From: Amphiscolops sp. MND2022
Lineage: Eukaryota
Length of the DNA: 64,000 nucleotides
NCBI GenBank assembly: GCA_964187785.1
Contig: OZ076409.1
Location: 28,956,001-29,020,000, forward strand
Reading direction: 5' to 3'
The notes below the pieces were generated by a model. The model saw nothing but the letters and a program-made list of their open reading frames with translations. It was not told where the DNA came from and did no database searches. The position numbers were made by a program, and so were the translations under genes. Shown in pieces: positions 19,141 to 55,831 of this stretch. How positions within the stretch are numbered: position 1 is the first letter of the stretch; each line of letters opens with the position of its first letter.

Positions 19141-19175
19141 GGAATCAAAATTGGTTCTGCAAGCCACTCCTTTTT

Positions 19176-19427
19176 AAAACAAAAAAAATTTGGTCAAGGG
19201 CGGGACTCGAACCCATGTCCTTCCGCTTGGCAGACCTCAAAAAGCCGTAACCTCTATGCCAGTGTGGTTTAGTGTTAGTGCCAGACAGTGTTAGTGCCAG
19301 ACAATGTTAGTGCCAGACAGCAGTGTTAGTGCTTACTTATAAAATTTATAAGATCTGTCAGTTCGTTGGTCTTAAAAAAAGTCACTACTATAGTCTGCGT
19401 TTTTCTTCGAAAAGCGCCGACTAAAAA
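19176..19427 (-). mobile_element. HINE-like 5' fragment carrying a tRNA-like module
   Basis: The minus strand starts tttttagtcggcgcttttcgaagaaaaacgcagacta. It then has three 15-18 bp repeats, an A-box tggcatagagg, a B-box ggttcgagtcc, ...gacca and a T-run. Confidence 0.75.
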
Positions 19428-21070
19428 TTCGTCGACATGTTTTCTTCGAAGTTCTGCCTGTCACTGCTGCATAAAGTAAGGGATTCGAGCAATGTTTCCA
19501 AGTTATCAACCGTTTTTCTCGTGGCGTAACGGTTTGAAGTCTTCCCTATCTTTTAATTGTAAGAAGACAGCCACAGAATGAAGAAATAAAGGAAAAGCCT
19601 TCTCCGGGAATTGACATTCCAATTGCAATTGAACGTTCATCTTGAGAAAGAGTGTCCATTTTTCTGCAGATATTTTTTCAAAAGTTGGAACAAATGCAAT
19701 GTTTAAAAATGTTTTCGCACCACTTCCCGTCAGTTCATCTTCTGATTTCAATCTTAATTTCATTTTCTGATATTTTACGTTTGTTGGTCAGTGAAATTTC
19801 GTCGTGTCGTTACTATTGGGCTCGTGTCTTCCGAGTGGAAATCCATTTGTTGAACATCTTTTATACCCAAGCTTCCTTCAATACTTACTGAAGCAACTTC
19901 TTATCTGAAGAAACTCGAGAAAAGAACCCTGAGAAAAAGGGAAGTAAGTGTATGAAAACTTTGTGCAGAAAATAGAGCGTTAGAAGTGAGAACTGCATAT
20001 AAATTTTTTTGCTGCAGAAAGAATTTATTCACTCTCATTTTGAACTACTGCTCTAATGCTGAAAAGAAATGTTTCACTGCAATTGAAATCTCGGCACTGA
20101 TGACATCGATACGGCTTTCTGAAGACCTTGTTAGTTTTAGCGTTTCCAAATACCTTTAGATACTAAAATTTTGTGATAGTGTTTTTCGTGCGAACTTTCA
20201 CGAGAACCAAGACTAGCCACTATGCACTGTCTTCAATACCCATGCATATGCATATGTTTCAATACCCACGATTTCCCTGCTAAAAATTGTCTCAAAATCT
20301 GTAGGCGTTATTGCATATCTGCGTTGGTCTGAGACAAATTCAACCCGAATAAAGGCAGTATTGTGAATTTTTTGTTTTTTAACAGGATTTTTTAAAGGAA
20401 AAAAGTTTTTTTGTTTATTAAGGATCATTTAAATCATTGCATAAGTATTCAACGCAAATCAAAACAGTATTAACGATCAAAATTGCAATTCGCTAGTACA
20501 TAAACATTAGAGTCTAATCTCAATATTATTTATAAGAATCGATTTTCCGTAAAGTATTAAGCCCTTGAAAATGCACTGTGATGTTTATGATAAAATACTG
20601 TAACTTGAACATTCTGAATACTAGCAGTAAATTTTGAAAAAAAAGATCGAGTTGGGGCAGATGCTAAATCTTCCACGCTCTCATCTCTATCGTCCGAGGT
20701 TCAATTCTCTTGGTACAGTTTCTTTTTATTTAAACTATTACAATTCATTTAAATGATTGTTCCTTTAGATGAATCGCTTTTGAAGGTTGGAAATTTATTT
20801 GATCATTTAAATGATCCTTTATATTACCTTTAATTGTACAACACTGATTAAAGAAGCGGTCAATCTTGTGGAAAGTTGGTTTGATAAATTTGAGGCACTG
20901 ATGAGATTGACTCGACTAGTATTTTCATGAAGATTTTGAAAACATTCGATATGTTTGTTCTCGGGAGTACGATTTTTTGGCTCTTGATGATTTCCACAAT
21001 GACTATCAGATTCTGGATGTGCAATGATGGATGCATTTTCTGCGATTTAGTTACCTAAATCCTCTGCTCA

Positions 21071-21698
21071 TTTTTAGTCGGCGCTTTTCCATTAAGGGAA
21101 AATGCCCGACTATAGCAGTGACTGTTTTTTTCTTCAGACTACAATCCTCACACTGATCGGTCCACTTTTTAGAAACAATCCTGAAACCACCTAAGGCGCC
21201 CAGTCCGGCAAAGGGGCCAAGGCAAACTTAGTGCAAAGGGTCCCCCCTTTCATTTTTTACTTTTTCAAGGTAACCTACGAAACCGGACGGGACTAAAGAG
21301 TCCCCCCTTTCGATTGTTTTTTTTCGGCACTGTGCGACTTTTTTTTCGAAAATTTTTTGTCTCCAAAGGGTCCCCCTTCCATTTTTACTTTTTACACGTA
21401 ACCTACGAAACCGGCCGAGGCTAAAGGGTCCCCCCTTTTGATTTTTTTCGGCACTGTGCGACTTTTTTCGAAAATTTTTTAATGTCCCCAAAGGGTCCCC
21501 CCTTTGAGTTTTTTGTTATTTTGCAACAGACTGCATGTTTGAAAATCAAAAAGGGTCCCATCTTTTACATTTTTCGGCACTGTACGACATTTTGCGAAAG
21601 CAAAATTTTTTCGAAAATTTCAAGTTTTTTCCAAAAAAAATGTTTTGCGCTTTTTGAGCCTTAGATATAGCGCCGACTTTAGACGTTCCCGTCTTGTT
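21071..21698 (+). mobile_element. Complete HINE/DINE-1-like non-autonomous Helentron
   Basis: 5' agtcggcgc with adjacent partial inverse gcccgact; internal tandem gggtccccc/ttttcggcactgtgcgac units; 3' subTIR gcgccgact then hairpin agacg-ttcc-cgtct. T-rich flanks, no TSD. Confidence 0.85.
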
Positions 21699-22107
21699 AT
21701 TATTTCTGCGATAGCAGGAATATTATTGAAATCTCAAGATATCTACTTTTTGCAGTAAAATTCTTCGCACGATTACTGAATAATTCAGATATTTTGTTCG
21801 GCAGTGACTATAAGCGTGAGAATTAAATTTTTCAAGCTGTCAGCTACATTTCAATGCTCGTGCGATGGAACGAGCGAGTGGTAATTATGCATTCATACGC
21901 TGACGTCATTGAGATGAAGCGAGCCAATGTTCGTAATTATGCGTTAATTATTCGTTCGTTGAGAGCTTCGCCTGCATTCAAATGCGAATGCGAAACTTCG
22001 TCTACGCTTAGTAGTTATATTTTCTTTAGTCCGAGAAGAATTGAAGGCGGTGTAAACTTGGATTACGTACCAAATAACATAAGAGCAAATAACATAATAA
22101 TGAAATT

Positions 22108-22188
22108 AGTTTCAAATAACATAAAAATGAAACCGAGTATCCGGTTACTAACCGGATATTCGGTTTCATTTTTATGTTATTTGAAACT
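22108..22188. repeat. 81 bp near-perfect palindrome
   Basis: agtttcaaataacataaaaatgaaaccgagtatccggtta-c-taaccggatattcggtttcatttttatgttatttgaaact, with a single G-T mismatch. Confidence 0.95.
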
Positions 22189-22193
22189 TAGGT

Positions 22194-22610: not shown

Positions 22611-22825
22611 AATGAACCAACGAGTCGTACTGCTTGATTGGTTTCATGAGAATAGATTAGCGTTCTTGCGCGTGTGAACAATCAATTCGCATTTTGTCAA
22701 AGAGATATGAGTGGAGTTTAATTAATCTGTGTTGCGTTTTTTTTCCAAATTCTGCCATCGACCTCACCTAGAATTACTTGACTATTTTACTTACTTGGCT
22801 ATTCTAGTTACTTAGTAAAATCTTG

Positions 22826-22942
22826 TCACCATGGCACAGTGTTAGTGCGTCTGCCTGGCAGACTAGGTCGTGGGTTCGAACCCGGACTGATGCGTTACAT
22901 TTTAAGCGGAGAATATCCCGGTGCTTAGCGGGCGTCTTGTTA
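22826..22942 (+). mobile_element. tRNA-derived segment followed by a HINE-like 3' end
   Basis: A-box tggcacagtg and B-box ggttcgaacc. Ends gcttagcgggcgtcttgtt; a close inverse of that end occurs at 57226-57245. Confidence 0.55.
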
Positions 22943-28123: not shown

Positions 28124-28125
28124 GA

Positions 28126-28380
28126 TTTTTAGTCGACGTTTTCCTCAGAAAAGAGTCGACTATAGTCATGGCTTTTCGTCAGTGTTTTTCGTCCGCGTAA
28201 CATACAATACCGGGCAAGAATAAATGGTCCCCCCTTAGAGTTTTGTTCGGCATTGTGAGACTTTTTTTGAAAAAAAATTCAATAAAGGGTCCCCAATTCA
28301 CCAATACTTTGACACTTCGAAGTCCTTTTGCTATTTTCGAGCTCAAATATGGCGTCGACTTGGACCAGTCCGGTTTGTTT
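28126..28380 (+). mobile_element. Short HINE-like copy
   Basis: 5' tttttagtcgacg...gagtcgacta, core ggtcccccc/ttcggcattgtgagac, 3' gcgtcgact plus hairpin and ttgttt. Confidence 0.8.
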
Positions 28381-29004
28381 GAAATAAAATTTGGTAATAC
28401 CATGGTATAACATGATGGTTTGTGATGTATTGGATAGGCTTGTGATGTTTAATGGCTGACAGCGTTCACGTCACTCAATTTGTATGTTGTTGCTTTACAT
28501 CTAGTCCAATAAAATAGTTCACTTTTTTGCTATTGCACAATAAATGTGTTGGTCTCTTGCTATTAGTTATTGCGCTGGATGCGGCGATAACTTAATGCAT
28601 TTAACATAGTGCTTTTAATGAAATACACATTTCATTATTTCTGAGTTATCAGTAAGTGCAGGTTGCGACTAATAGTTACCATGCTGTAATAAATGAATTG
28701 GACGGACCTCTGATTGTAAAAGTTGATTTGGACTCGATTAAAAAAGACCAAAATCTTCTGAACAAAAATGTGTTTTTGACAACTGTGAAACTAAAAGTTC
28801 ATTAATGTTAGAGCATTCTAAGATCAATATACAAAAACTTAGGAACTATGCATTTTAATACTCAGTTTGTTTTTAACCTATTTTAGTTCAAATTTCGAAA
28901 GCCTTGAGAGTTGAAAAAAAATTCAAGAGTATCCACTGGAATAATTTTTTTTGCAAAACTTTGAAAAGAAACCGTCTTGAACGGGACTTGTATAACGGAC
29001 AATG

Positions 29005-29445
29005 GGTACTCCTGACTAAGTGTGGTCCCTGTAAAATTTATGCAGCCGGCCTGAAAACTCCGTGGTCCCTAGCAAATTTGGAATTAAATTAAAAACAAAA
29101 TTAAACGTAAAGCAAACATTACATGTAGTTCAAAACAGCAGAATTCAATTTACTAGCTTTTAGTGCTGTTACAGCCAATATTTATGGAACTTGATTTGAA
29201 GAGGTTAGCATATTTGTTGTATGGCTCGGTCGCTTCGCTCCCTTCGCCAAGTAGCAACATTGAGGCATGGCCATATGGCACCTCGCTCCGCTTCGCTCCT
29301 GCATTTAGGGCACTAGGGGTATGTGAACATAGCTGACTACGGTATAATAATTATTCCGACAAAATATGCAGGGACCACACCTACATTATAGGGACCACAC
29401 TTAGTAAGGAGACATCGCTTGGGACCACACTTAGTCAGGAGTACC
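29005..29445. mobile_element. MITE with GG-starting TIR and 8 bp TSD (Merlin/Mutator-like)
   Basis: Perfect 25 bp TIR ggtactcctgactaagtgtggtccc. TSD ggacaatg at 28997-29004 and 29446-29453. Confidence 0.9.
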
Positions 29446-34133: not shown

Positions 34134-34652
34134 TTAAAACTTCCAAATCCAGTTGCCTTATAGCGCATCTGATTGCATGTCTTGGAGCGTTCATATACTT
34201 TCTTTTTTTGTAGTCGAATAGTTTTCGAAATCGAGACTATTTAGAAGCTTCAAGATATTACAAAGAAGCCCAGAGATGATAAAGTTTCCAACATATGATT
34301 TGAAGCTAGTGAAATAATGAAAACTCATTTTTGTACCACTTTTCGCAGCTTTTGATGGAAAGAGTGACTCACCGTCGATAAGCATCCATGGTGTCCTCCG
34401 TTTATTTTTTTTACCTATTTACTAAACTGATTGTCATTAAATAGCCTCTTTTGTGTTGATTTTAGGCATTTTGCAGCTTTTTTGAATGTTTTTGATTCGA
34501 GAAAAGTTACAATTCCAAAGTCTTCATTTTGGTTATTTTCGGCAATGTGATGATGTTTTTATTTTCTTGAACGCCGCCCTGGAGAATATTTCCCAGACTT
34601 GATGCTTTTTTTGGCATTTAGCGGAGCGTCGACTTTGGTCTTCCTTCTCTTT

Positions 34653-34900
34653 GGGGCATGACGTAGTGGTTAGAGCATTCGGCCTGTACTGGGCGGTATC
34701 AGGTTCGAATCTCTCTCAACTCAACCATTGTTGGTCCTTAAGCAAGTCCTTCATCCCTAGCTTAGTGGCATGGTCAATGACAAAAAATAACGCATTTGGC
34801 AAAACAAAAAGAGCAACAGTGAGCAGTCAAACCTTTGTGACCTTGAGCAAGTCACATTAAAATCACAGCTTCAAGTCCACCATTACTTGACCACTTGGCT
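34653..34900 (+). mobile_element. tRNA-derived SINE with CORE-like motifs
   Basis: A-box tgacgtagtgg and B-box ggttcgaatc, followed by gtccttaagcaagtcc and tgtgaccttgagcaagtcac, which resemble the CORE/MIR motif tgtgaccttgggcaagtcac. 3' end approximate. Confidence 0.65.
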
Positions 34901-35709
34901 GCAACTATGGTACCATAGCTTGCTATGGGGAGATAGTATCCGAAAGGGCGCCGACTTAGAAAAGCAGAACTGCTTATTCCGCGTCCACCCAGCGGTTATG
35001 AGGAAATTAACTTCTCTCTTGTTACACTTGCGTCTTCTCTACACCATTTTTTATTCTTTGTTTTTTTTTAGTCGACGCTTCGTGAAGTGAAACGCGACTA
35101 TAATAGTGACTTTTTTCCAATCCACCCGAACTCTGACCTAAATAGTTCTACAAAGTTCTACGAAACTTCGAGGATTGGGCCATTTGGCACAAGAAACTGA
35201 AATAAAAGTTGTTCCTTTTTTTCAGCATTAGATACAATACCGGGCGAGACTAAATGGTCCCCTTTCAGTTTTTTTGGCATTGTGAGACTTTCCGAAACTT
35301 TTTTCTCAAAGGCAAGGTTGGGTCTGTTTAAAACACCTGTTTTGAACTTTTTGAACCGTGCGAGAAAAACATCTCTAAAACACAATTTAAAAAACATTGT
35401 TTCTTATTTTCCCCGATCCATTTTTCCCAGTTTTTGATCTTATTGTTTGTTTAATCTGTGCCCCGTTTTCGATCCAATTGTTCAATCTACGCCCCGTTTT
35501 CGATCTAATTGTTCAATTTACGCCCTGTTTCTGATCTAATTGTTCAATCTAATCAGTTGACTGTTGATATTGTAGAAAGTCATGCCATATCAAAAAGAAG
35601 TGGCGAATGTAAAATATGTAAAGATAGCGTGATGGGTCTCGTATCGCGGTTAAAGACTCATTTTGAAGTGTTCAACGAAAAACCAATCTACGTCATTCGT
35701 GGATATAAA

Positions 35710-39714: not shown

Positions 39715-40571
39715 TTTTTAGTCCGGCGCTTTTATAAATAAAAGAGCCCGACTATTACAGTCACTCGTTTTTTTAAGACAGACTCGAAGCGACGAACGTC
39801 AATTAACTACAGAACGGTAATTTACTACTAAACTACTGGACCGGTGAATGAACGGGGAGCGTATTTAAGATGGTGCAAAGGGTCCCCCTTTCAGTTACTC
39901 CATTCTTATCGTAAGATATAAAACCGGACGAGACTATAGGGTCCCCCCTTTGAGTTTTTCCGGCACTATGCGACTTTTCGAATTTTTTTTGTCTCCAAAG
40001 GGTCCCCCTTCAAGTTTTTTGATATTTTACAGCAAACTGAAGTTTGGAAAAGCTCAAAGGGTCTCCCCTTCCAAGTTTATCGGCACTCTGAGACTGGCTC
40101 AAAATTGTTGTTTTTCGATTTTTTTTCGAAATTTTTAATGTCTCGAAAGGGTCCTCCTTCAATTTTTTAAATATTTTGCAACATAATAGATATTTCACAA
40201 TCCCAAAGGGTCCCCAATTTTAGATTTTTCGGCACTATGAGACTGCTCAAAATTGTTATTTTTCGTCTAATTTTTCTCAGTATATATCTACCAATATTTT
40301 TTTCCAAAACTATCCGAAACTTGGACGTAATATCCTAAGTAAAGCGCTATATCCGGATTTTTGACGTTATATCCGAAATATATTCCGTTTTACCAAGGAG
40401 AGGCGGAGCTCCCATTTGGGCCAGCACGCTATATCCGAAGTTTGAGACGTTACACCCCGCACCATATTGGATTTTCAAAAAACCCAAAGGGTCCCCCCTT
40501 TTACAATTTCAAAACGTTTGGGCATTTTGAGCCTTAGATATGGTGCCGACTTTAGACGTTCCCGTCTTGTT
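39715..40571 (+). mobile_element. Complete HINE-like copy, head-to-tail with the preceding copy
   Basis: tttttagtccggcgc...gagcccgacta start, gggtcccc tandem core, gtgccgactttagacgttcccgtcttgtt end. Confidence 0.85.
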
Positions 40572-41134
40572 AATTTTTAGGACTAATTGTTTCAAAACTA
40601 TTGCATCTGGAGCTTCTAACCTCAATACCACGGTTGACATGTTTTGGAACAATGTTGTAAAGTGTTTCGACAAGAAATGGCGTTATTGATGCTAGGCACG
40701 CTGTGATCATCCTCGGATTTGGTTCATCTCCAAGGCAGTAGTCGCGAGAATAGTTTTTTGAATTGAAATACAATAATTTTAATTCATTTGGTCATACATA
40801 TTACTAACACGAATAGTATAGAAACAGAAATTTCTGACCAAATAAAACCTACCAAGGGCCAATGCCTGTTTGAAAGAGCTGGGGCGGGTTTTCGAGATAT
40901 GTATGGAATGATTTGATCTCACAGCCGGTAAAATGAGTCGTTTTTCTACTTTCAAATGTTCAACTGGTGTTCTCGTTCCGGTGCGATCCATGTTTTGAAA
41001 ATACACCCACCGTTTAGAAAATCCTAAAATCGTCCTGTGAAGGAGGCCTTCCTTAAAGCAGCTTGCTAGGTCACCGTTCTCACAATCGAAAATAACAAAA
41101 GACCAGAGTTTGAAGAAATTAAGCATTTCAAACA

Positions 41135-41684
41135 AACAAGCCGAGAACGGCCAAAGTCGGCGCTATATCGAAGGCTCAAAATTGTAAAAGGGGGGACCCT
41201 TCGGGCTTTGTGAAACTCCAGCTGGTTGCAAAATATGAAAAAAAATTGAAGGGGAGCCCTTTGGGGACTTGAAAAAATTCCCCAGAAAAAAATTTGAAAA
41301 TGAGATTTTTGAACAGTGTCACAGTGCAGAAAAATGTGAAAGGGGGGACCCTTTGGGTTTTTTTGACATCCATTGTGTTGCAAAATGTCGAAACAAAAGA
41401 AGGACGGACCCTTTGGTGCAATCCAAAAGTTTCAAAAGTTGCATAATGCGGAAAAAAATGTGGGGCTATGGTGGGATCCTTAGTGTGATTTCGAGGTTCT
41501 GGACGTCTGTTTTGTTTCTTCTTTTCGTTTTGGACGCGCTTTCGAGGTTGGAGTTGTTGAGGTTCGAAGTTGTTGAGGTTTGACGTTGTCGAACAAATGA
41601 ACAAAAAAGTGGACCTTACTCGTCTAAAAAAACTACGCACTGTAAGAGTCGGGCACATTGTCTACTAAAATGCGCCGACTAAAA
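41135..41684 (-). mobile_element. Complete HINE-like copy (inverted)
   Basis: Minus strand reads ttttagtcggcgc ... gatatagcgccgactttggccgttctcggcttgtt. Confidence 0.85.
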
Positions 41685-41859
41685 TTATACGACGCTGCAA
41701 CACCCGTTGCCGATTTTTGCATCGAAACTTTCCTGGTCATTATTAAGGGTTAGATAGGAAACTCGTTTTCATAACTTATTATCGTTTTCATAACAAAATG
41801 TCTCGAACCAATGGAATGAGGTTTACTGTTGAATATCCACAAAAAAAGAAAATATTCTC

Positions 41860-44059: not shown

Positions 44060-44914
44060 ATATGCCTGTATGTTCATATTTTCTTCTTTATATTATTGTA
44101 CAGTTCCAAAATATTCTGTACGGCAAAGAAGTTTTAAAGAACAATAAATACAAAATAAATTAGCATTTGTCTCGGAACAGCAATGTCAGAATCGGGAAAA
44201 TGAGTCGATTACCACCAATAACTGCTTTTAGTCGGTCCGGAATGCTGTCCTGTAGTTTTTGTGTACTGTAGTGTACTTCAAATCAAAAAAGGGCCAGTGC
44301 TGAATACGGTGGGAGCTTTGCGCTAACCTTGTTAGCGCCTGCGTTTTCATGATTCCCGGACGATAGAAACAAGGCTTCCATTTATTCTGTATACAATCAC
44401 GCATTCTCGACATCTCATTGGACTGAGCAAGTAATACTGAGCCCCTGAGGGATCATTTTTAGTCGCAACATTTAGGTAACTAAAATTGCGAGACTATTGC
44501 AGTCACAGTTTTCTTCAAGACAACCACGAATGTGACGGAACGATACGAACGTGACGAAACGGATAGGCTTCTAGACGCAGAAGTAAAAATTGCTAACAGA
44601 GATTAACGGGTCCTCCTTTTGAATTTTCATTATTTTTATATCACCTATCAATCAAAAGTGCAAAAGGTGGCGCCTCTTCAGTATTTTGACATCTTGTCGG
44701 TACTGTTAGAGTTTTGCTGTGAACTTTTTAATTTCACATGAGGGTCCTCGTTTGTTTTTTTTGTTATTTTCAGTCAGAAAAGAGCCCTTTTTAACCCAAA
44801 AGGTGTTTTTCGGCAATTTGAGATTGAAATGATTTTGAAATACTTTTGAAGCATAATTGAAATATTTGATCGTTTCCAACTACTGTTCTTTGAAGAGCTC
44901 TCTTATTTGTTTAG

Positions 44915-44982
44915 ATCGCTTGATTTCGTGGTTGGGCAGCTTGAAAACACAGCTTTACATCAGCCATGCTTTGTCCGCTTGG
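44915..44982 (+). CDS. SLC40A1: Ferroportin exon (start of TM1)
   Basis: Boundaries tttag|AT...TGG|gtaagt. Translates RLISWLGSLKTQLYISHALSAW, matching ferroportin LYLGHSLSTW. 68 nt. Confidence 0.9.
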
Positions 44983-45109
44983 GTAAGTAGTTTTATTTAT
45001 ATATAGTTCATTTTTATTTTCATTTATTCTCTTATGAAGTATTTTGTGACTTATCATCATTTTCCTTCATATTCCTTTGTCAAACATTGACGTTGAATTT
45101 AATTTTCCA

Positions 45110-45661
45110 GTTCAATTCAGTAAGTGCCCGAGGGTTATAGTTGCTGGTTTTTTGTCAGAATACAGACCGCACACTTTTTGTACAGAATTGTACACTTTTG
45201 AGCAGAGTTTGTTCATGCCACTGGCCGTCACTTGGCCCAATGGTTAGGACGCGTGCTTCTCAAGCAGGACATGATGGGTTCGAACCCCGCCGAGGGCTGA
45301 AATTTGTTAATTTTCGCAAGTCTTGACGCAGTCAAAGTTTTTTCTACACTGTCACTTTTTATCTATTTCCATTCTACCAAAGGGTCCCCCTTTGGTATTA
45401 CATCTGTTTCAACTTGGAAAAAACGTTTTTGATTCTGAAGGATCTCCTCCTGTAATTTTTGGCACTGTGGAATTTTTGAGGTAAGTTTTTCCACTGTTTT
45501 CAGTTAAAAAAAAGCGTTTTTCGAAGCCACAGGGCGCCCCTTTGGATTGTTTTTGACGATGTGAAAATCATAAGAATTTCCTGGAAGCCACTCTGCATAT
45601 TTACTACACTTTTACTTTCTGAACCTTAGTCGGACGCCGACTTGAGAGTTCTCGTCTTGTT
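45110..45661 (+). mobile_element. Degenerate HINE-like copy with tRNA-like module at ~45225-45297
   Basis: tggcccaatgg A-box, ggttcgaaccc B-box, core aagggtccccc, 3' gacgccgacttgagagttctcgtcttgtt. 5' end eroded. Confidence 0.7.
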
Positions 45662-46125
45662 TTTTGAACTTTTGACCGGTAACGCCCTTTCGATTTCGAA
45701 ATAAGTTGAAAATTTTGAATCTGACATTGATTTTTTTCGGGAAATCTAATAGTATGAGCTGTTTAGATTTCAGATTTACCTATGTTGCTTTTTAATATCA
45801 CTACTGTACCAAAAAAAGTTAACTTGAAGGGTCATAATTGAAACGTGGCGGTGAAAATTTTCCATTTGGTCACAAGTCAAACTCGTCTAACTTTAAATGC
45901 TCTGTACTTTCAAGTAAAAACATCTGATATTGCTTCTCCCAAATTCAAACTAGATTGTCACTTTTTTGTATACAACTAAAAGGTTTGGATCCCACCAATG
46001 AATCAAAATTATGCCGATTTTGAAACGGTCCTAACTTCGGGAATACAGTTTGAAACACTCTGTATTATTTTCTGTTTTTACTGCGTTCAAGTGTGAACGA
46101 TCAAGAGGTGAAAGTGTGTTTGCAG

Positions 46126-46291
46126 GGTGATCGCTGGTGGACGTTCTCTATCGGTCTACTACTGGTGACGCTATCGCCCGTAGAAGGCTCCCTGAGGGTA
46201 ACTGCAATCAATAGTATCACCATTTCTGTCGCTCTCGTTCTCTTCTCTCATGTCATTGGCTATTGGATTGATCTCAGCCCACGTCTGCATG
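46126..46291 (+). CDS. SLC40A1: Ferroportin exon (GDR motif, TM1-TM2)
   Basis: Boundaries tgcag|GGT...CATG|gtatgg. Translates GDRWWTFSIGLLLVTL...IGYWIDLSPRLH. Confidence 0.93.
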
Positions 46292-46836
46292 GTATGGCTT
46301 TCTTGTCTCCATCTTGTACCATTCCTATCATTATCACGTATTTCTGGATTTTTGTATCTCCTTTACTTAGTGAGTTACTCTTTGATGTTATTCAGAGTTA
46401 TTGGGATCTTTTTTTTTAATAGGCTGTATTTCCTCAATTTTTCATACATTGCTTTCAAATCATCCTTCTGAAATAGCTGAAGAGAATCGGAATTAATTTT
46501 GTTGAAATTACAAATAGCATTGAAAGACTAAGTTTCAGCTTGGTAATAGCATTTTAATTCAGCCATCTGTCAATGAAAAAATAGATGCTCTAGAGACTGG
46601 GAATTCGGGCAGAATGCTCCCAACGCCTGTTTCAATGCCTTATCGCGATGATGAGATATGATATGATTTCTGTTGGGTCTTTCAGTTGGAATGTCACTGA
46701 AACGTATCTGCCTTTCTGATCGAAGCTTCGGATGTTCTCTCCAAAGTTTATCTTCGATTCTCATATTTTTGATACATTTAACATATCAGACGAATATCAA
46801 CACGCACCGAATGTGAAAAAAGTTGTTTGGTTTCAG

Positions 46837-47076
46837 TGATCCGAGTGTCGGTGTTATTCCAGAATGCGTGTGTGGTGGTTACCAACGTGCTGGTATATTT
46901 GGTGTTCGTTAACTACCACGCGCATCAGAGGATGAATGAGCCGGCGGTGGTACTGTACCTGGTCGTCATCATCTCCTTCTCCGTGCTCGGCAGACTGGCC
47001 AGTGTCGCCAACAAGATCGCTGTCACGAAGGACTGGATTGTCGTCATCGCACATGCCGGACATGTCGCTCTCACTG
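46837..47076 (+). CDS. SLC40A1: Ferroportin exon (TM3-TM4)
   Basis: Boundaries tttcag|TG...ACTG|gttagt. Translates VIRVSVLFQNACVV...LASVANKIAVTKDWIVVIA. Phase 1 at both ends. Confidence 0.93.
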
Positions 47077-47429
47077 GTTAGTAGTTTCCCAGGGAGAACA
47101 TTTCGATTCTCAAATTGGTTTCCTCTAAGTTTTGGCAAAGCAAGGGTGATACTCCGTTGTCTAACGACACCAAAAGTTCCGTATCATGGATATATATGAA
47201 ATCCATGGTTTCTACGTTTTTGTGTTTTCGCATTTTCGAAGCATTAGATTTGAAAAATTTGAAAGCGGCTTTAGTTGCAGCGTTGAGCAAATTTTTTGTT
47301 TTGAATTTTTGGAACAAAATTTGCGTAGTAAGATCGTTCCCGAGCAAAGATTCTTGCGGCGAATGATACACTGAAGCGAAGTCTAGCTTATTGTGGTAAA
47401 TTCTTGGTTTCAACTTTCACCAGACGCCG

Positions 47430-47586
47430 GTATCGCGCGGGTCCGTGAATTTTGAATGTTCTACATCTTATTTAAAGTTTTGTTCATTAAATAAGAAGCA
47501 TTTTCCCACCAAAATTTATGGATTTTTGAAAGAAATTGAATAATAAAACGTTTAATTTATTTTTTAAAAACTGGACCTTGGAGAGG
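47430..47586 (+). repeat. Dispersed repeat, second copy at ~55965-56125
   Basis: Shared gaatttt.aatgttctacatcttatttaa.gttttgt...agaagcat...caccaaaattta.ggattttt sequence. Confidence 0.75.
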
Positions 47587-47810
47587 CGTGAACAGAGATA
47601 AGCTTTTGTCTTAAAAGTGATTCACAATAGTAATGAGGAGGGTTTAAATTGGGATTAATATGAAAGGTTTCAAGATATTGTGATATCCTTTATTTAGTGT
47701 TTCTTTGTGGTGATCAGTACAATTCTTAATAATCATTCTTTATCATGTCAATTTCTTTCCGTCTTCCGACAGAGCTACAGTGCCTTCTCTTGATCTTGAT
47801 TTTTGTTCAG

Positions 47811-48014
47811 ATGCGAATGCGACGATGCGTAGAATAGACTTAGTGTGCAACATTGTGGCCCCCGTGTGCATAGGATTCCTCATGACTTGGGCCAGTCAAC
47901 AGTTCGCAGCTCTTTTCGTTGCAATCTGGAACGGGGTATCTGCCCTTGTGGAGTACACTCTTCTAGTCAGCATCTACACAGCCGAACCCATGCTCAGTGT
48001 CAAAGACGACGCAA
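47811..48014 (+). CDS. SLC40A1: Ferroportin exon (TM5-TM6)
   Basis: Acceptor gttcag|AT. Translates DANATMRRIDLVCNIVAP...IWNGVSALVEY...PMLSVKDD. The donor is either a|gttagc (48014) or the GC donor c|gcaagt (48010). Confidence 0.9.
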
Positions 48015-48049
48015 GTTAGCGACCAACCATTGTCAAATATGCAAAAGTA

Positions 48050-48514
48050 CAGTACTGTGATTAAGAAAACGTCCCCCGAGCGATTTTAGGCTCGATTTTC
48101 TCGAAATTGGTTGAGAATTTTGAAAAACATCAGATAAAAGTTTCTTAGAATTTCATCTAGTTTATATTAGTGTTTTTTAAATTTTTCTGGGACAAAAATT
48201 GAGAAAGTTACAAATGGCTGATTTTGAGCAAATTTGGTACTTTTTTCCGTTCTTATAATTTTTGACCGTTTTATCCACAGTTTTTTCGGCAAGTTTTATG
48301 CTCAAATAACTCCCTCAAATCTACTGAATAAATTGATGTATTTTGATTTCAAAATAGATCAACCGTTTCCGAATTATCAGGCTCAAAAGGTAAAATTTCC
48401 TAAATTTACGTGAAATTCACTTGATGCGCCAATCAGAATTGAAAGTGAGAGCAAATAAACAATTGTGATTGGCTGAAAACGTCATACGGGGACGATTTCT
48501 TAATCACAGTACTG
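48050..48514. mobile_element. Tc1/mariner-type MITE (TA TSD), 465 bp
   Basis: TA|cagtactgtgattaagaaaacgtcccc ... ggggacgatttcttaatcacagtactg|TA. Confidence 0.92.
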
Positions 48515-48685
48515 TACACTGGTTCAGTAATAAATGCATCATGAAAGATGCCGAAGACAGCTACTATTACTCTGGAAAAGAATCTGTGGCAAGCTTACCA
48601 TTCTTATTAAGTACACACGACTCGAGTCTTACGTAATTGAGTCCGTGGTGGGTACACTTTTTGGATGATCGTTTATGACAGCACT

Positions 48686-48927
48686 TGTTGTTGTTTGAAG
48701 AGTTGTTTTTATGAAATGATTGAATTAAATTTGATAATGACAAGACAGTTTTTATTCAGTGAGAAGAGTAGAACAAATTTGACTCTTGAAATAAAGTGGG
48801 AAAGTGTGAATAAACGTGGCAGAAAATCAACAGTTCAAACTTTTTCATACGTAATTTCATGTGTCGAATTCTGATTGGTTAATTCAAAAGTTAGCATCAC
48901 AAACGAATATTTTCAGAAGCATCAACA
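48686..48927 (-). repeat. 3' LTR
   Basis: Direct repeat of 53356-53597 with 3 substitutions counted by eye. Confidence 0.97.
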
Positions 48928-49322
48928 TATGTCGCCCGGGTTGAAGTCCTTCAATAAAAAGAGTTCCATTTTCATATACTTCATGGCACATTTTGTCGAT
49001 AACGACAGCTGATCAGCAATCATTTGTAGCTGCAAGAACGAAGTATATGCTATAAGTGCATCTTGTGATAAGTTGAAATGGTATATGAAGTAGTCAGTAG
49101 TCCAGTAGAGGGCATGCATTTCTGATCATAAGATAACAACGACTTGAATTAGGATAATGAATCGATAATTCCGATAAACTAGAGACTAATAGGGAGCGAA
49201 TAGGCTATTTCCCGCGGTCCGTATCCCAAACGGGTCATGAGGGGATACTTTTTGCGGCTGTGGGTTGACAGAAAAAACAAGATATAACGAAAATAACCAA
49301 AGTATTCTGTCACTTTCTTCCC

Positions 49323-52084
49323 TCAAGGACCACTGGGGATTCTGTCCACGATGGATTCAGCTAGCGGTAGCTTTCTGAGTTTAATTACAGGTCGATTGAA
49401 GGTTTTCTTTGACGTTTTGATCTCTGCTACCCTCGGAATTTCATCATTTCCTTTAAATAGTTTCGAGACTCTGGCAAGTTTCCACACAAGTGGGGCTTCG
49501 TTATCTTCAGCAACCAGTACAAGGTCGCCCACGTTTATACAAGGTCCAGTGCGAAACCATTTCTTCCGTATTTGAAGTTCCACAAGGTAGTCTCTGCTCC
49601 AAGACTTCCAGAAATCTTGTTGAATTCGTTGAAGGAGTTTTAGTCTCTGTCCTGCGGGTACATCTATGTCTTCTCTGGCTTTTGGCCTTGGAAGTTTCCT
49701 TCAGCTCACGTTTCTCTGGTAACACAGATGAGGATTGTACATCTAGTTGAGGCCAATAAGATTTTGGGTGTGGTAGCCATTCAGGGCCAGACCACCAAAG
49801 GCGAGAGTTAACGGTATCGTCAACTGAGATTCCCCTTGAGGCCAGATCCGCTGGGTTGTCATTTGTTGGAACATGATTCCAGCTATCTCTTTTGATAATT
49901 TTTTGTATGTAGGAAACTCTGTTCGCTACAAATGTGGTCCAAGTTCGCGGGAGTTGCGATAACCACTGGAGAAAGATGGTGGAGTCTGTCCATGCGTGGA
50001 AAGATTGTTTAAGACCAGTTGAAGAGTTGACATGGTAGCTTCAAGCAGTTTTGCGGCTAAGTGTGCACCACAAAGCTCAAGACGAGGCATTGAGACAACC
50101 TTCACTGGGGCAACCTTCGTTTTAGAAGTGATCAAATGCGAGCTCACATTTCCAAAGACATCAGTGGTACGCGCATAGATGACGGCAGCATATGCCTTCT
50201 CTGAGGCATCGCAGAAAACATGGAGTTGAAAGTCTTGAATTGCATTTTTTACAATTGCACGCGGCATTGTGATTTGAGACAACGTTTCCAGCTCAGAATA
50301 GTGCTGTAAAAACTGCTGCTTGATCGGTTCGGGAACGAGCTCGTCCCACTCGACTCCAGTCAACCAAATTTGTTGAAGTAGGATTTTGAACACGATGATG
50401 ATGGGAGACAGCCAACCCATTGGATCGTACAAGTTTGCTGTAGCTGACAATAGATTGCGTTTGGTGAGTACTGTCACAGCAGGTAGGTCCGTTTTGAAGC
50501 ATATGATGTCCAGGTTTGGTTTCCAAATGATTCCTAGAGCCTTCATTTTGTAGTCGTCATTTCACATTCGTTAGCTGTTTCTCGCAGCTCATCGGGTAGT
50601 TCCTTGATCAATGTAGAGCAGCTTGATACCCATTTACGCAGTGGGAATCCATATTTGAGGAGTTCGGAATGAAGGTCTGCAATCAATTTCCGTGCATCTT
50701 CAACAGAATTGGCTCCGCCAAAAAAATCATCCACATAGAAGGAGTGCTCCAAATGATGTTGGACATTTGGGTTGCAAGTTCGCTTGGAAACTTCTTTCAG
50801 ACATCTTGTGGAATGAAAGGATGATGATGCAATGCCGTATGTCACTCTTGTCATGCGAAAAATACGCACAGGTATGTCCTTTCTTTCACGCCAAATGATC
50901 CGATGAAAATCCTTGTCTGGTACATCTAAAGCAACCTGTCTGTACATTTTCTCTATATCAGCTGACAAAGCAACAGGTACCACTCGAAAGCGCATAATGA
51001 TGGAGTAAAGATCGTCCTGTACTGTTGGACCAACCATGAGAATGTCATTTAAAGACTTTCCAGTGGAAGTCTTTGCAGATCCATCGAAGACAACACGAAG
51101 TTTTGTAGTTTCTGAATCGTCTTTAAATACGCAATGGTGGGGTAGGTAGAAGCTTTTGCTGTCCTCGCTGCGTGTCTCGTTCGCTGGAACTTCCTCCATA
51201 TGCCCAGTTTCCACAAATTGATCGATGAATGACTTGTAGCGCGATTTGAGCTCCGGATCTGAGTCTAGACGTTTTTCAAGTGAGTTGAACCTTCTGTTTG
51301 CTTGATCTAAACTTTCTCCCAACTGACAATCTTGCTTGAAGGGTAATTTTACAGTGAAACGGTTGTCTTGATATTTTGTCGTGTTAACAAAATGTTGCTC
51401 ACAGGCTTCTTCTTCCTTGGAGAACTGACGACCCTTTGGAATTTCCTCCAACTCCCAAAATTGCTTTAAATCAAAGTCGACTGATGATTGGAAGGAACTA
51501 ACGCTTGTCACTGATTTGCCAGGTTTTGATCCACAGATTGTCCACCCGAATGCTGTTTTGCGTGCGTAGATACCATCACACACTTTGGTTCTTTCGTTTC
51601 CAATGACTTGTTCATAAAGATCAATTCCGATGATGATATCAATATTAGAAGGTTTTGCAAAGTTTGGATCAGAAAGCTTGATATTTGGAAACTTGATTTG
51701 CTCTGGTACTTTCAGCGGACTGGATGGAATAGCAGCTGTCAGTCGTGGTAAAATGAATGCTGAAACATCGTAGGAGATGGAATTTTCATCAACAATTGTC
51801 AGATCAGTCTTTCCACGGGTAGTTGATTTTGATGAACATCCAATGCCATTGATAATTATCTCGGATTTCAGTCGTTTCAGCTGCAAACGTTGTACACATT
51901 CCTCGCTAATAAATGTCAATTCCGATCCACTATCCAGAAGTGCTCGACACTTGTGAGCGATACCAGTTTTCGACATGACTGACACTTCCACTGTAGGTAG
52001 GATGTGTTTCGCAGAAAATATCCCCTCGTGACCCAAATGCGAATTGGCCACGGGGACCTGTTCAGTTTGCTCACCAGGGGTATG
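49323..52084 (-). pseudogene. BEL/Pao pol: protease, RT, RNase H and integrase C-terminal tail; integrase core absent
   Basis: ALLDSGSELTFI; KLRVVFDGS, ADIEKMYRQV, FYVDD; LHVFCDASEKAYAAVIY, PRLELCGA; WWSGPEWL; then FWKSWSRDYL..LQ.RKKW...VGDLVLV. Frameshifts near 50545, 49990 and 49690. Confidence 0.93.
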
Positions 52085-53280
52085 GAGCAGGGTATGGTGC
52101 AGTTTTTGACACTCTGACACCTTGACTTGGATTTGCAGGCCTTAGAATTGTGACCTGGTCGTAAACAATTGAAACACAACTTCTTGATTTTGATAAATTT
52201 CTGTTTGTCTTCATAACTCATAATCTTGAATTTATCGCACTGGTGTAGTTTGTGTCCCTCGGAGCAGTTGATGCAAGACACGCTAGCAGTAGAGCCTTGG
52301 TAACCTTGAACTTTGTTTGATTCTTGATTTTTCTTGACTAACTTGCTTGATGAGGCTGAGGCTTCAAGTGCTCGGGCTCTATCTTCAAGAAACCGCTTTA
52401 GGCTGTCCATGCTCTGAGCATCATCGCCCTTGCTGTGAAGTTCCCATTGTCTGCGGCTCTGGGTGTCCAACTTTTTTGCTATGATGTGAACCCAGATGAA
52501 ATCTGATGGTCCGACATCTAATCCCAATCCTTGTAGGGCCATCGTGTTTTCCATGAAATTGCTAATCAATTTCCTCAGCTGATCAGGCGATTCTTCTTTG
52601 ATCGGACGAAAATCAAAGATGGCTTCTAGATGAGTGTGAATTATCATTCGTTTGTTCGCATACCTGTCTTGGAGAAGTTTTTTGGCAACTTCGTAATTCG
52701 CACTGGAAGTAGGTAAATGCGATAGAAGACGAGCTGGCTCATCTTTCAGCGAAGACTCAAGATAGTGGAGTTTCTGAATGTTGCTAAGCGTACGATTGCT
52801 GTCCACAGTGCTGTTGAATGTGTCTGAGAATGGTGTCCACTCAGAGTATTTCCCAGTAAATGTAGGAAGACTGAGTTTCGGCAGCTTTAATCCAGAAGTG
52901 GATGTTTGTTGATTATCTTCAGTCACAGTTTGTGGTTGTCTCGGGGCGGCGTCAGCAGCCTGTTCGATCCGTTCTTCGGCCATTTCAAGCGCTTTGATCG
53001 TTGTTTTGATCCTGAGATCATTGTCATCAATTCTAGACCTTTCAGTTTCGATCTCTTCTGAGATTTTGTCACTTTCAGTCAATTCGTTGGTGATGCGTTC
53101 GTTTAATTCTTCAATCTTGGACACTTGTTCCCTGCACCTTTCAAGAGAACACTTGATCTTTGAGATTTCCAGCAGCGTTAGTGTGCTAGGTTCCTTCTCA
53201 AGGATTTCCTTCACTGAGTTTTCTGTCCTGGTAATTGTTCCGAGATGGCCAGATCTCGTTCTTTTCAAAGCTTCAGCCAT
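52085..53280 (-). pseudogene. BEL/Pao gag (DUF1759-like region and three Cys/His knuckles)
   Basis: LKLPKLSLPTFTG..SEW..F.DTF, CINCSEGHKLHQC, CFNCLRPGHNSKAC and C..CQKLHHTLLH. A 1 nt frameshift lies near 52113. Confidence 0.93.
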
Positions 53281-53344
53281 TTCAAATTTAATAATCCTTC
53301 TGTTCAATGTTGAATTTCCAAGTTTCGAAATTCCTGGGTAAGCG

Positions 53345-53352
53345 CGGCACCA
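53345..53352 (-). promoter_or_regulatory. Primer-binding site
   Basis: TGGTGCCG 3 nt inside the 5' LTR, complementary to the ...CGGCACCA 3' end typical of eukaryotic tRNA-His or tRNA-Phe. Confidence 0.8.
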
Positions 53353-53355
53353 AAA

Positions 53356-53597
53356 TGTTGTTGTTTGAAGAGTTGTTTTTATGAAATGATTGAATTAAAT
53401 TTGATAATGACAAGACAGTTTTTATTCAGTGAGAAGAGTAGAACGAACTTGACTCTTGAAATAAAGTGGGAAAGTGTGAATAAACGTGGCAGAAAATCAA
53501 CAGTTCAAACTTATTCATACGTAATTTCATGTGTCGAATTCTGATTGGTTAATTCAAAAGTTAGCATCACAAACGAATATTTTCAGAAGCATCAACA
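53356..53597 (-). repeat. 5' LTR
   Basis: Followed on the minus strand by tttTGGTGCCG (primer-binding site). Confidence 0.97.
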
Positions 53598-53842: not shown

Positions 53843-54151
53843 GTAAGTTGATGAAGTGACTGGTTTTATCTTTAATAACAAAGACCTGAAATAAAGCGCT
53901 TGATGAATTTTTTCAATATCTTGAAAATGTGTGTTGATAAACTGTGATGCAGTGTTCAGTTGGTGCTCTTCTGAAAAATAGCTCACTATTGCTGTGACTA
54001 GTTTTTTCCGGCATTGAGATTTTTTCCGAAAAACACTTCCCGTTCCAAAATTACCACTTTTCAATATTTTGTATTTTTGGAACCATATATTTTTGGTCCG
54101 CATTTTTGATTACTTCGACACTGTGTGTTTATGAAATTTTTCAAACAGGTC

Positions 54152-54305
54152 AGTAGTAATATGAGAGCCGATCAAACAGCGGGTAGAGGAACCCATGTAT
54201 TAAGATAGGTCTTAGATCCAAGCGGGGTAGGGTCCTCCGAGTAGTGGGTTGATATAGAGGTGTGCTCTCATATCCCCCTGTCTGATCGGCTCTCATATTA
54301 CTACT
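54152..54305. mobile_element. 154 bp MITE with AGTAGT termini and 6 bp TSD (Maverick/Polinton-type ends)
   Basis: 28 bp TIR agtagtaatatgagagccgatca(a/g)acag (27/28 identical). TSD caggtc at 54146-54151 and 54306-54311. Confidence 0.85.
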
Positions 54306-54549
54306 CAGGTCCCGAATCAATTTGAAGGACTTTGGACCACTTCCTGAGCCTCCTCCAGCGGGCGCCGACTTGTTTTTGATTTGGAAATTTCTGCGACAAG
54401 GATGTAATTTGTCACGTCATATTTCTCGAAAGGGCGTATTCAATTTGATTTTTCAAAAAACAGAGCTTAAACTGAATCCAAAATTGATTCAAATTTGTCT
54501 AATATTGCATTTCATTTTCCAATAATGTATATACGTCTATAAAAATTAG

Positions 54550-54759
54550 CAAAGGAGCAGCGTACCCTAGCTCGGGATTGGCGATGATAAACAGTAAAAA
54601 ATCGCCCCTGAGTGGCGATTCTAGTCCCCCCGTGCGCCAGGGCCTGAGCTACGCGGGTGACCAGGGTAACGATGATTTGTATGACAACCCCATAGCAGCG
54701 GGGGAGAGTGGGCTGTTGGAGAGAACGACTCGCTTCGATCTATCCAACCTCACTGCCAG
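54550..54759 (+). CDS. Candidate ferroportin central-loop exon
   Basis: GC-rich open frame KGAAYPSSGLAMINSKKSPLSGDSSPPVRQG...RFDLSNLTA with donor cag|gtgaac. Acceptors at 54549 or 54570 are both phase 2, matching exon 53779-53842, but have weak pyrimidine tracts. Confidence 0.45.
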
Positions 54760-55062
54760 GTGAACTCATTCTCTCTGCTCTATGCTCCTCTGTCCGAGCA
54801 TCCTAGCTTCTCTCACTGCACTTGCATTTGTTGTGTCTGCTTAATTGTTTTGCCTGAGCTCCATTATTTTATGTTTGTAAAGCGCTCTACTAAAAGACGC
54901 ATGTGTGAAATGTTTTCACATGAAAGTGAATTGTTGCAAGCATCAAGGTAATGAATGCAACTGATGAGTTGTTGTACACTAAATGTTTTCTATGCGTCAT
55001 CCTGGAATATGCCTGGTATGTTCAAGTTGCTTATGTTGGGTGCACTTGTGTTAAGGGGTGTG

Positions 55063-55831
55063 TTTAGTCGCCGTTTTCGAAGAAAAAGCGCGACTCTTAC
55101 AGTGGCAAGTTTCTTCTTCAGTTCCACGCGATCGGTCCATTTTTTGTGCACTGTGTGGGTGCTTTTTTCCGCACGACAACACTCTCGTTTCAGCCAGAAA
55201 GTCGCAGTTCAGGCGTTCGTGGTCTAATGGTAAGATGCTTGCTTTTCAACCCAGAGGTTTCGTGCTCGAACCGGTGCGTATGCGCTAATTTTTCCGAAGT
55301 CCCCTTTCCCATTTTTGCAGCATTATGAGACGATCCCTCCCCCTTTTCGGCTGTGTGAAACTTTTTTTGAAAAATTTTCAATGTCTCCCCTTTCATATTT
55401 TTCCGTTTTATGGGACTGTCAAAAATTCTCAATACATATCCACCAATAATTTTTTCCAATACTATCCGAATTTTTTTAAGACCGGGGATTTTCCGGTACT
55501 ATGCGACCTTTTTCAAATTTGTTTTTATCGAAGCTCTTCGACTTTTACCAGAAACGAAACGTTTAGCGAGCATAGAAGACTTCTTAGGGTTTTCGGCACT
55601 ATGCGACTTAACCGGAGACACTTTTTGAAAAGTCTCATTTTTTCTCATTTTTTTTGTTTTTGAGAGGTTTTCAGTTGAGCACGATGGGTTTTTTGCTGTT
55701 TCCAGTTGGGGAAAAGTGAATATTCTAGTCTCGTGCAGTTTTGGCACTGAAACTGATGAAATTTCAAGAGTATTTACACTTTACTTTTTTGAACCTTGAG
55801 CGGGGCGTCGACTTGGGCAGTTTTCGGCTTG
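55063..55831 (+). mobile_element. HINE-like copy with tRNA-like module at ~55213-55285
   Basis: tttagtcgccg...gcgcgact start; gcgttcgtggtctaatggtaag...gtgctcgaacc module; 3' gcgtcgacttgggcagttttcggctt. Confidence 0.75.

What the first reader, a model, noticed from the sequence alone, without database searches (positions are those of the whole stretch)
19176..55831. Helentron-type (HINE) elements carrying tRNA-like Pol III modules
Seen: copies at 19176-19427(-), 45110-45661 and 55063-55831 each contain a ~70 bp tRNA-shaped module with A and B boxes, roughly 110-170 bp from the 5' end; 22826-22942 has one next to a HINE-like 3' end. The modules differ from each other (putative loops ctgccaa, ttctcaa, ttttcaa). 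The 19.2 kb one ends in ...CCA followed by a T-run. Other copies (21071, 39715, 41135, 43490) have unrelated sequence in this slot. Inference: a rolling-circle DNA element with a variable cassette slot that repeatedly holds a tRNA-derived promoter, i.e. a SINE-like head spread by a DNA transposon, possibly dispersing TFIIIC/Pol III sites.
Basis: partly seen in the sequence, partly recalled or inferred. Interest (0 to 1): 0.72.

Follow-up and report, generated by a model that had tools for sequence, protein, structure and literature searches.

The report
Rolling-circle transposons carrying decayed tRNA copies
In this animal DNA, 3 of 11 copies of a short DNA transposon with rolling-circle-type ends hold a decayed tRNA-like segment with RNA polymerase III promoter boxes at the same internal position, and they likely spread it as cargo; whether the boxes still work is untested.

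Summary
The observation largely holds. The window has a family with DINE-1/HINE anatomy: 5' subTIR and hairpin, central repeats, 3' subTIR and hairpin, T-rich flanks. Perfect-B-box A/B pairs occur 3 times, against 0.02 in shuffles. Three of 11 HINE 5' ends have a sense-oriented module 136-166 bp downstream (p about 1e-5, window chosen afterwards), with no TSD or tail. New evidence: the 250-bp copy at 19178-19427 interrupts a decayed Tc1 transposase at one TT junction with the protein register kept, so its module lies inside the element's ends. Corrections: the modules are decayed (Rfam 15-25 bits, cut-off 29). They are no more alike than unrelated tRNAs. They add length instead of filling a fixed slot. 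The CCA and T-run carry no weight. The 22.8-kb case has no 5' end and an ambiguous 3' end. A fifth module at 34.65 kb heads a separate CORE-SINE-like element. No genome or reads were available, so multi-copy amplification, number of captures and TFIIIC binding are untested. Best reading: tRNA-derived cargo in HINE subfamilies from one or a few old captures; a new variant of a known kind.

The parts
19178..19427 (-). HINE copy, 250 bp: 5' subTIR and hairpin, 16-bp tandem repeat, tRNA-like module, T-run, ends TTGTT; no central repeats and no 3' subTIR
   Evidence: boundaries from the interrupted Tc1 relic
19189..19268 (-). tRNA-like module; A box 19251-19261 (1 mismatch), B box 19203-19213 (perfect)
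   Evidence: leave-one-out E 0.002; no Rfam tRNA match
19271..19320 (.). 16-bp unit x3.1 directly upstream of the module; shares a 13-mer, inverted relative to its own module, with the D-arm region of the 22.8-kb module
18588..19177 (-). C-terminal part of a decayed Tc1-like transposase (host sequence, 3' flank of the insert)
   Evidence: DDE_3 E 6.5e-5; Sleeping Beauty E 0.002; profile positions 117-318
19426..19668 (-). N-terminal part of the same Tc1-like relic (host sequence, 5' flank of the insert)
   Evidence: anchored profile score 6.0 against background mean -14.1, sd 4.2, 0 of 600 as high; not significant in free searches
45097..45661 (+). HINE copy with decayed 5' end, module, central repeats and full 3' end; lies in an inferred intron of a ferroportin gene
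45223..45299 (+). tRNA-like module, Glu(CTC)-like loop; A box 45233-45243 and B box 45277-45287 both perfect
   Evidence: (15.3 bits)
55062..55832 (+). Complete HINE copy with module and central repeats
55213..55284 (+). tRNA-like module, Glu(TTC)-like loop, D stem 4/4, acceptor 6/7; B box damaged (3 mismatches)
   Evidence: (25.4 bits)
22825..22941 (+). tRNA-like module (A box 22832, perfect B box 22873) plus a 45-bp tail ending like a HINE; no 5' end found; membership uncertain
   Evidence: (17.1 bits)
34652..35000 (+). Fifth A/B module, head of a CORE-SINE-like element that follows a decayed HINE 3' end; the CORE-like part appears split by a 218-bp piece (34761-34978) ending in the family subTIR plus a hairpin
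   Evidence: by-eye comparison with supplementary Fig. S10 of PMC4758252
21071..21699 (+). HINE copy without module
28126..28381 (+). Short HINE copy without module
39716..40572 (+). HINE copy without module, inserted directly after the 3' end of another copy
41135..41685 (-). HINE copy without module; 16-bp tandem repeat in the variable segment
43490..44059 (+). HINE copy without module
35065..35310 (+). HINE 5' part without module; closest 5' block to the 19427 copy
44456..44830 (+). Decayed HINE 5' part without module

Best explanation
These are short non-coding elements with HINE (Helentron-associated) ends, three of which hold a decayed tRNA-like A/B-box segment between the left flank and the central repeats, likely captured as DNA once or a few times long ago and likely copied since as passive cargo by rolling-circle transposition. 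Shown: the end structures, the boxes, the shared offset and orientation, the lack of TSD and tail, and one clean TT-site insert in a Tc1 relic. Inferred: mobilisation by a Helentron Rep/helicase in trans; capture by template switching in the slippage-prone segment after the 5' block, where short tandem duplications also occur. Also inferred: the 19.2-kb copy ended early at an internal TTGTT behind the module's T-arm hairpin (the 45.2-kb module is followed by a similar AAATTT..GTT). A Pol III transcript would start about 120-150 bp inside the element, so the whole element cannot move as a SINE. Any TFIIIC binding would be a by-product.
For: Boxes above chance, 3 against 0.023 in 300 shuffles; offsets 136-166 bp, P(at least 3 of 5) 1e-5 for a 100-bp window and 3e-4 for 300 bp. 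No TSD at any of 5 modules under exact or relaxed tests. No SINE body or tail follows the three slot modules; central repeats resume 12 and about 80 bp later in two of them. The Tc1 relic resumes at 19157 on one side and scores above all 600 background positions at 19426 on the other, while the insert itself scores as background. The two complete module copies both have Glu-type loops, and 45661 is the best 3'-end match of 55832. The variable segment between left flank and central repeats is a described HINE feature (PMC7492417, passages), and Helentrons capture host DNA (PMC4067079, passages).
Against: No second near-identical copy of any module-bearing type lies in the window, so amplification with the module is not shown. 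The modules resemble each other no more than they resemble 99 unrelated phage tRNAs, the spacers before them do not align (z 0-1), and the 5'-block tree rejects one clade (p-AU 0.029): a single capture is doubtful. The Tc1 junction shows that the module is inside the element's ends, not that it was there when the element moved. The N-terminal Tc1 half is significant only in the anchored test, which I designed after seeing the motifs. No autonomous Helentron was seen among the 13 window ORFs scanned.
Confidence: 0.55

Rival explanations
1. Repeated, independent capture of different tRNA genes or SINE heads at the same point, retained because a Pol III/TFIIIC site near the 5' end helps the element, for example by keeping the nicking site open or escaping silencing.
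For: Modules are as different as unrelated tRNAs. The 5'-block tree separates 19427 from 45097 and 55062, p-AU 0.029. B boxes are perfect in 2 of 3 slot modules, and at 22.8 kb, while stems have decayed.
Against: The B box of the 55213 module has 3 mismatches. The tree has no starred branch. Two modules share Glu-type loops, and two share an 8-mer and a 3' flank. Only 3 of 11 copies carry a module. There are no binding or expression data.
Confidence: 0.22
2. Each module retroposed on its own into an already resident HINE copy, as a tailless tRNA or SINE-head retropseudogene, helped by T-rich target sites.
For: LINE relics occur in the window (RVT_1 hits). HINE sense strands are T-rich. The modules differ from each other and add length to the element. 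Old TSDs could have decayed.
Against: No TSD in 5 of 5. The same orientation and an offset within 30 bp in three copies would need to be coincidence. No further module lies in the rest of the window. Tailless retropseudogenes are described as L1-dependent, 3'-truncated and TSD-flanked (PMC5322556, passages), whereas the 55213 module is full length.
Confidence: 0.13
3. The module is ancestral to the whole family and was lost or overwritten in the subfamilies that lack it.
For: Module copies are scattered on the 5'-block tree (3 changes) and include long branches. Counts of changes cannot tell gain from loss.
Against: No remnant is detected in 8 of 11 copies by the five-module profile. Module-free copies share a shorter left part, +98 to +204.
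Confidence: 0.1

Closest known systems
DINE-1 / HINE elements (Drosophila, mite, Culex; PMC2374699 and PMC4067079, passages read)
   Same: 5' subTIR with a partial inverted repeat, central tandem repeats, 3' subTIR followed by a hairpin, T-rich insertion site without TSD, no ORF, clustering of copies.
   Different: subTIR complementarity here is 8-10 nt against 12-15 described, and the 3' hairpin ends about 4 nt from the terminus. DINE-1 is stated to lack Pol III boxes and tRNA similarity; 'tRNA' occurs 0 times in the main text of the HINE paper.
Cg_HINE of the Pacific oyster (PMC7492417, passages)
   Same: A left flank separated from the central repeats by a highly variable 10-500 bp segment; related flanks carrying unrelated internal sequence.
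   Different: The cargo there is satellite-like repeats; 'tRNA', 'SINE' and 'polymerase III' occur 0 times in the main text.
MER6/MER6A MITE carrying the V-SINE domain (PMC6887750, abstract and outline only)
   Same: A piece of a SINE spread as cargo of a non-autonomous DNA transposon.
   Different: A cut-and-paste mariner MITE; the cargo is the central V domain, not a tRNA head with promoter boxes.
Arabidopsis chromosome 5 tRNA-Cys cluster overlapping annotated Helitrons (PMC10701932, passages)
   Same: tRNA sequence inside a putative rolling-circle element; the authors speculate that the tRNA structure acts as a termination signal.
   Different: Intact tandem tRNA genes at one locus, and three Helitron finders did not confirm the element. 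[quoted passage not shown] Here the copies are dispersed, decayed and within clear HINE ends.
Helibat Helitrons with captured promoters and retrotransposons (PMC4224331, passages)
   Same: Rolling-circle elements that amplify captured promoters and retroelement sequence.
   Different: Canonical Helitrons with Pol II promoters; 'tRNA' and 'SINE' occur 0 times in the main text.
tRNA-derived CORE-SINEs (Cgi_CORE_1; PMC4758252, passages and supplement file 4 part 4)
   Same: tRNA head with A/B boxes; the element at 34652 has CORE-like sequence right after the head (by eye).
   Different: The three slot modules have no CORE, body or tail, and lie 120-150 bp inside a DNA-element 5' end.

Membership tests
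HINE / DINE-1-like | Subterminal inverted repeats at 5' and 3' ends | tested here: met
   Perfect 8-10 nt in 4 of 7 complete copies, 7 of 8 in 55062, degraded in 39716 and 45097; shorter than the 12-15 nt described. Absent at the 3' end of 19427.
HINE / DINE-1-like | Inverted repeat forming a hairpin with the 5' subTIR | tested here: met
   86% of cells paired in 9 copies; covariation reached by 1 of 500 shuffles; slid controls 25-39%. The structure was drawn from these sequences.
HINE / DINE-1-like | Short palindrome after the 3' subTIR | tested here: met
   4-5 bp stems in 21699, 40572, 44059 and 41135; weaker or alternative folds in 28381, 45661 and 55832; missing in 39713 and 54372.
HINE / DINE-1-like | Insertion in a T-rich site without TSD or host loss | tested here: met
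   One inferred empty site: the Tc1 relic keeps its register across a TT junction. Flanks of 8 copies are T-rich with no TSD seen. No true paralogous empty site was available.
HINE / DINE-1-like | Central tandem repeats and no coding capacity | tested here: met
   128- and 149-bp units; repeat-unit profile hits in module and non-module copies.
HINE / DINE-1-like | Autonomous Helentron (Rep/helicase/endonuclease) sharing the ends | not testable with these tools
   No genome held; none among 13 window ORFs scanned.
tRNA gene | Cloverleaf scoring above the Rfam/ARAGORN cut-off | tested here: not met
   25.4, 17.1 and 15.3 bits against 29; no tRNA match for 2 of 5 modules; ARAGORN default 0.
Pol III type 2 promoter | A box and B box at tRNA spacing | tested here: met
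   41-48 bp start to start in 4 of 5 modules; above shuffles. The B box is damaged in 55213.
Pol III type 2 promoter | TFIIIC/Pol III occupancy or transcript | not testable with these tools
   No runs were listed.
tRNA-derived SINE (slot modules) | Body and 3' tail after the head | tested here: not met
   Central repeats or the element end follow directly.
tRNA-derived SINE (slot modules) | Target site duplication | tested here: not met
   None in 5 of 5; relaxed scores were reached by 868 to 2907 of 3000 background pairs. Decay could hide old TSDs.
CORE-SINE (34652 element) | CORE domain after the tRNA head | tested here: inconclusive
   By-eye match in two pieces to Cgi_CORE_1 in supplementary Fig. 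S10 of PMC4758252; no score computed.
Cargo-carrying subfamily | Multiple near-identical copies of flank plus module at different loci | not testable with these tools
   None in 64 kb; no genome; the one metagenome match is bacterial-looking sequence.

The most novel reading that the evidence does not exclude
A Helentron family has repeatedly recruited different tRNA-type promoters to one position behind its 5' hairpin and keeps the B box under selection. It would then seed very many TFIIIC sites across the genome by DNA transposition alone, and the tRNA T-arm hairpin can replace the normal 3' terminator to give new short elements such as the 250-bp copy.
Probability: 0.2. Interest if true: 0.75.

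Novelty: new variant of a known kind. Interest (0 to 1): 0.45.

Why it matters
Dispersed Pol III promoters are usually credited to SINE retroposition. If module-bearing HINE types are multi-copy, rolling-circle DNA elements are a second route for spreading TFIIIC sites, which can act as chromatin boundaries (established knowledge, recalled). A 2023 paper says non-coding RNA capture by a Helitron had not been shown (PMC10701932). Practically, such copies would be mis-annotated as tRNA pseudogenes or SINEs. If the modules are only decayed passengers, this is an ordinary case of transposon cargo.

Tried and rejected
No whole genome is held. No sequencing run was listed for 44300-49200, so no reads were laid; this says nothing about expression. 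The 5'-end pattern gave 0 loci in viral contigs and 1 in metagenome contigs, L001, whose surroundings look bacterial and which I dropped as chance. The organism was not identified: two ferroportin exon searches found no homolog, and the Atlas gave only the family. Four look-ups of earlier scan findings returned nothing. Routes to Tc1 homologs that failed or were unhelpful; the set used came (18 of 36 loci gave long enough ORFs). Free profile and pairwise searches did not make the N-terminal Tc1 half significant; only the anchored test did. My first hairpin structure was out of register and was replaced. Rejected: the T-run as evidence of a terminator; CCA as evidence of a mature tRNA (acceptor 2 of 7); intact tRNA genes; one shared SINE family behind all five modules; the idea that the 45661, 55832 and 34640 ends form a proven subfamily (open support). 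The phage tRNA control was selected for a perfect T-loop motif, which raises its scores. Literature searches that found no report of tRNA-like modules in HINEs; one search covered a window 14-mer and found nothing. The library lacks most subscription papers and Repbase Reports. The C. briggsae genome paper, which I recall as reporting a tRNA amplified inside a repeat family, could not be fetched, so that possible precedent is unverified recall. Supplements of PMC4067079 (subTIR table) were not read, and file 1 of the PMC4758252 supplement was not searchable.
Full report
Setting. The window is AT-rich animal-type DNA with two satellite arrays, LINE and BEL/Pao-type relics and a ferroportin gene near 45-48 kb. 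The organism was not identified. No genome is held and no sequencing run was listed, so all tests of the elements rest on 64 kb.

The element family. Profiles of the ends map 5' ends at 19427(-), 21071, 28126, 35065, 39716, 41685(-), 43490, 44456, 45097 (decayed) and 55062, plus 3566(-) by pattern. 3' ends map at 21699, 28381, about 34640, 39713, 40572, 41135(-), 44059, 45661, 54372 and 55832. The 5' subTIR pairs with a downstream inverted repeat in 86% of cells across 9 copies, with covariation reached by 1 of 500 shuffles. The 3' subTIR complements the 5' one over 8-10 nt in 4 of 7 complete copies and is followed by a short stem and TGTT. Central repeats of 128-149 bp lie between. All 13 exact matches to the subTIR core lie at mapped ends or at 34948. 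This is the DINE-1/HINE plan of PMC2374699 and PMC4067079 (passages), with shorter subTIRs. An autonomous partner could not be sought.

The modules are real but decayed. A boxes with at most one mismatch paired with a perfect B box occur 3 times (19261-, 22832+, 45233+), against a mean of 0.023 in 300 shuffles; allowing one B mismatch adds 34659+ (4 against 0.61 in 100). The 55213 module has a damaged B box but the best tRNA shape: 25.4 bits, D stem 4/4, acceptor 6/7. Leave-one-out profiles rank the omitted module first in 5 of 5 cases and find no sixth. None passes Rfam's cut-off or ARAGORN's default, and none folds better than shuffles. The 45.2 and 55.2 kb loops read as Glu CTC and TTC.

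Link to the element. Three of the five modules start 136-166 bp after a 5' end on the same strand. With 11 ends, the chance of at least 3 of 5 is 1e-5 for a 100-bp window and 3e-4 for 300 bp, the window being chosen afterwards. No TSD was found at any of the five, and no body or tail follows the three. In module copies the first central repeat lies at +235 and +283, against +98 to +204 in seven others, so the module is an addition at the flank/repeat boundary. In oyster HINEs this boundary is a described variable segment (PMC7492417, passages).

A natural boundary marker. The 19.2-kb copy lies in a decayed Tc1-like transposase. A profile from 18 Tc1-like ORFs (18 of 36 loci) matches from nucleotide 19157, about 20 bp beyond the module's T-run, through the DDE domain. 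The N-terminal half is not significant in free searches. When anchored just outside the HINE 5' end it scores 6.0, against a background of -14.1 (sd 4.2, 0 of 600 as high), while the insert scores as background. By eye, the residues on the two sides continue the profile without a gap and the junction is a run of Ts. The insert is therefore 19178-19427, enters a TT site without TSD or host loss, and ends in TTGTT like other copies, but lacks central repeats and the 3' subTIR. The module is inside the element's ends. Either a full copy lost its interior later, or replication stopped at an internal TTGTT behind the T-arm hairpin; the 45.2-kb module has a similar flank. The second reading is inference.

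One capture or several. For several: module pairs score no higher than modules against 99 unrelated phage tRNAs (best cases 3-7 of 99 as high, most far more), the spacers before them do not align, and the 5'-block tree rejects one clade at p-AU 0.029 with no starred branch. For few: the shared offset, two Glu-type loops, 45661 being the best 3' match of 55832, and an 8-mer and flank shared by the 19.2 and 45.2 kb modules. I favour one or a few old captures, with low resolution.

The other two modules. 22825-22941 has perfect D and T stems and a tail that fits a HINE 3' end (4 of 3000 background). It has no 5' end, and the tail matches the centre of a fold-back element at 57226-57260 best (86% over 35 nt), so its membership is uncertain. 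It is followed by sequence that resembles by eye the CORE domain of Cgi_CORE_1 (PMC4758252, supplement file 4 part 4), in two pieces separated by 218 bp that end in the family subTIR and a hairpin. It is most simply a SINE with a HINE-like piece inserted in it. Its head is not specially related to the slot modules.

Mechanism. Inferred: a Helentron Rep/helicase copies these elements in trans; a tRNA gene or SINE head was picked up as DNA in the slippage-prone segment after the 5' block, where short tandem repeats also arise (19271-19320, 41544-41589, 44526-44558), and decayed while riding along. SINE-type movement of the whole element is excluded, because an internal Pol III promoter would start transcription well inside the 5' end (established knowledge). 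Function of the boxes is untested.

Comparison and novelty. Cargo capture by rolling-circle elements is known (PMC4067079 and PMC4224331, passages), as is a SINE domain spread by a MITE (PMC6887750, abstract and outline). DINE-1 is stated to lack Pol III boxes. The nearest tRNA case, an Arabidopsis cluster, was not confirmed as a Helitron, and its authors say it would be the first non-coding RNA capture (PMC10701932, passages). PMC8010984 (passages) added nothing; PMC5322556 (passages) defines the tailless-retropseudogene rival. Nine searches (listings only unless named above) found no HINE with tRNA-like modules, but the library is partial and a recalled nematode precedent could not be fetched.

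Verdict. Observation partly confirmed; interpretation partly supported; new variant of a known kind; interest 0.45. It would rise to about 0.75 if genome-wide data show repeated capture with conserved, bound B boxes.

Noticed in passing
window 34652-35000 (+): CORE-SINE-like element whose CORE-like part appears split by a 218-bp piece ending in the HINE family subTIR and a hairpin; that piece holds a second CORE-like motif at 34834-34860 (resemblance recalled, not scored).
   Followed up: partly
window 19271-19320 and 22836-22848: The 16-bp tandem unit upstream of the 19.2-kb module shares an exact 13-mer, found only at these two places, with the D-arm region of the 22.8-kb module, in inverted orientation relative to its own module. 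Unexplained.
   Followed up: partly
window 57071-57430; also 22906-22940 and 62223-62249: Fold-back element with about 160-bp arms; its central 35 bp recur as the tail of the 22.8-kb unit and more weakly at 62.2 kb.
   Followed up: partly
window 18588-19668 (-): Decayed Tc1-like transposase gene interrupted by the 250-bp HINE copy.
   Followed up: yes
window 44938-48019 (+): Ferroportin (FPN1) exons; the 45097 HINE copy lies in the inferred intron 44983-46125.
   Followed up: partly
window 49300-53400 (-): BEL/Pao-type LTR retroelement with long open frames (DUF1759, protease, RT), in a ferroportin intron or just downstream of the gene.
   Followed up: no
window 39676-39716 and 54322-54372: HINE 3' ends lacking the hairpin, the subTIR running straight into TGTT, consistent with deletion between short direct repeats; the first abuts the next copy's 5' end.
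   Followed up: partly
window 8982-16333 and 58139-61006: Satellite arrays: about 34-bp subunits in 130/164/293-bp higher-order repeats, and a 185-bp unit also seen at 1-730.
   Followed up: no
window 54150-54307, 22106-22257/22518-22586, 29191-30861, 63406-63966: Several MITE-like or fold-back inverted repeats; the first sits inside a decayed HINE copy.
   Followed up: no
L001 616-660: A bacterial-looking intergenic hairpin matches the HINE 5'-end pattern exactly; taken as chance.
   Followed up: no
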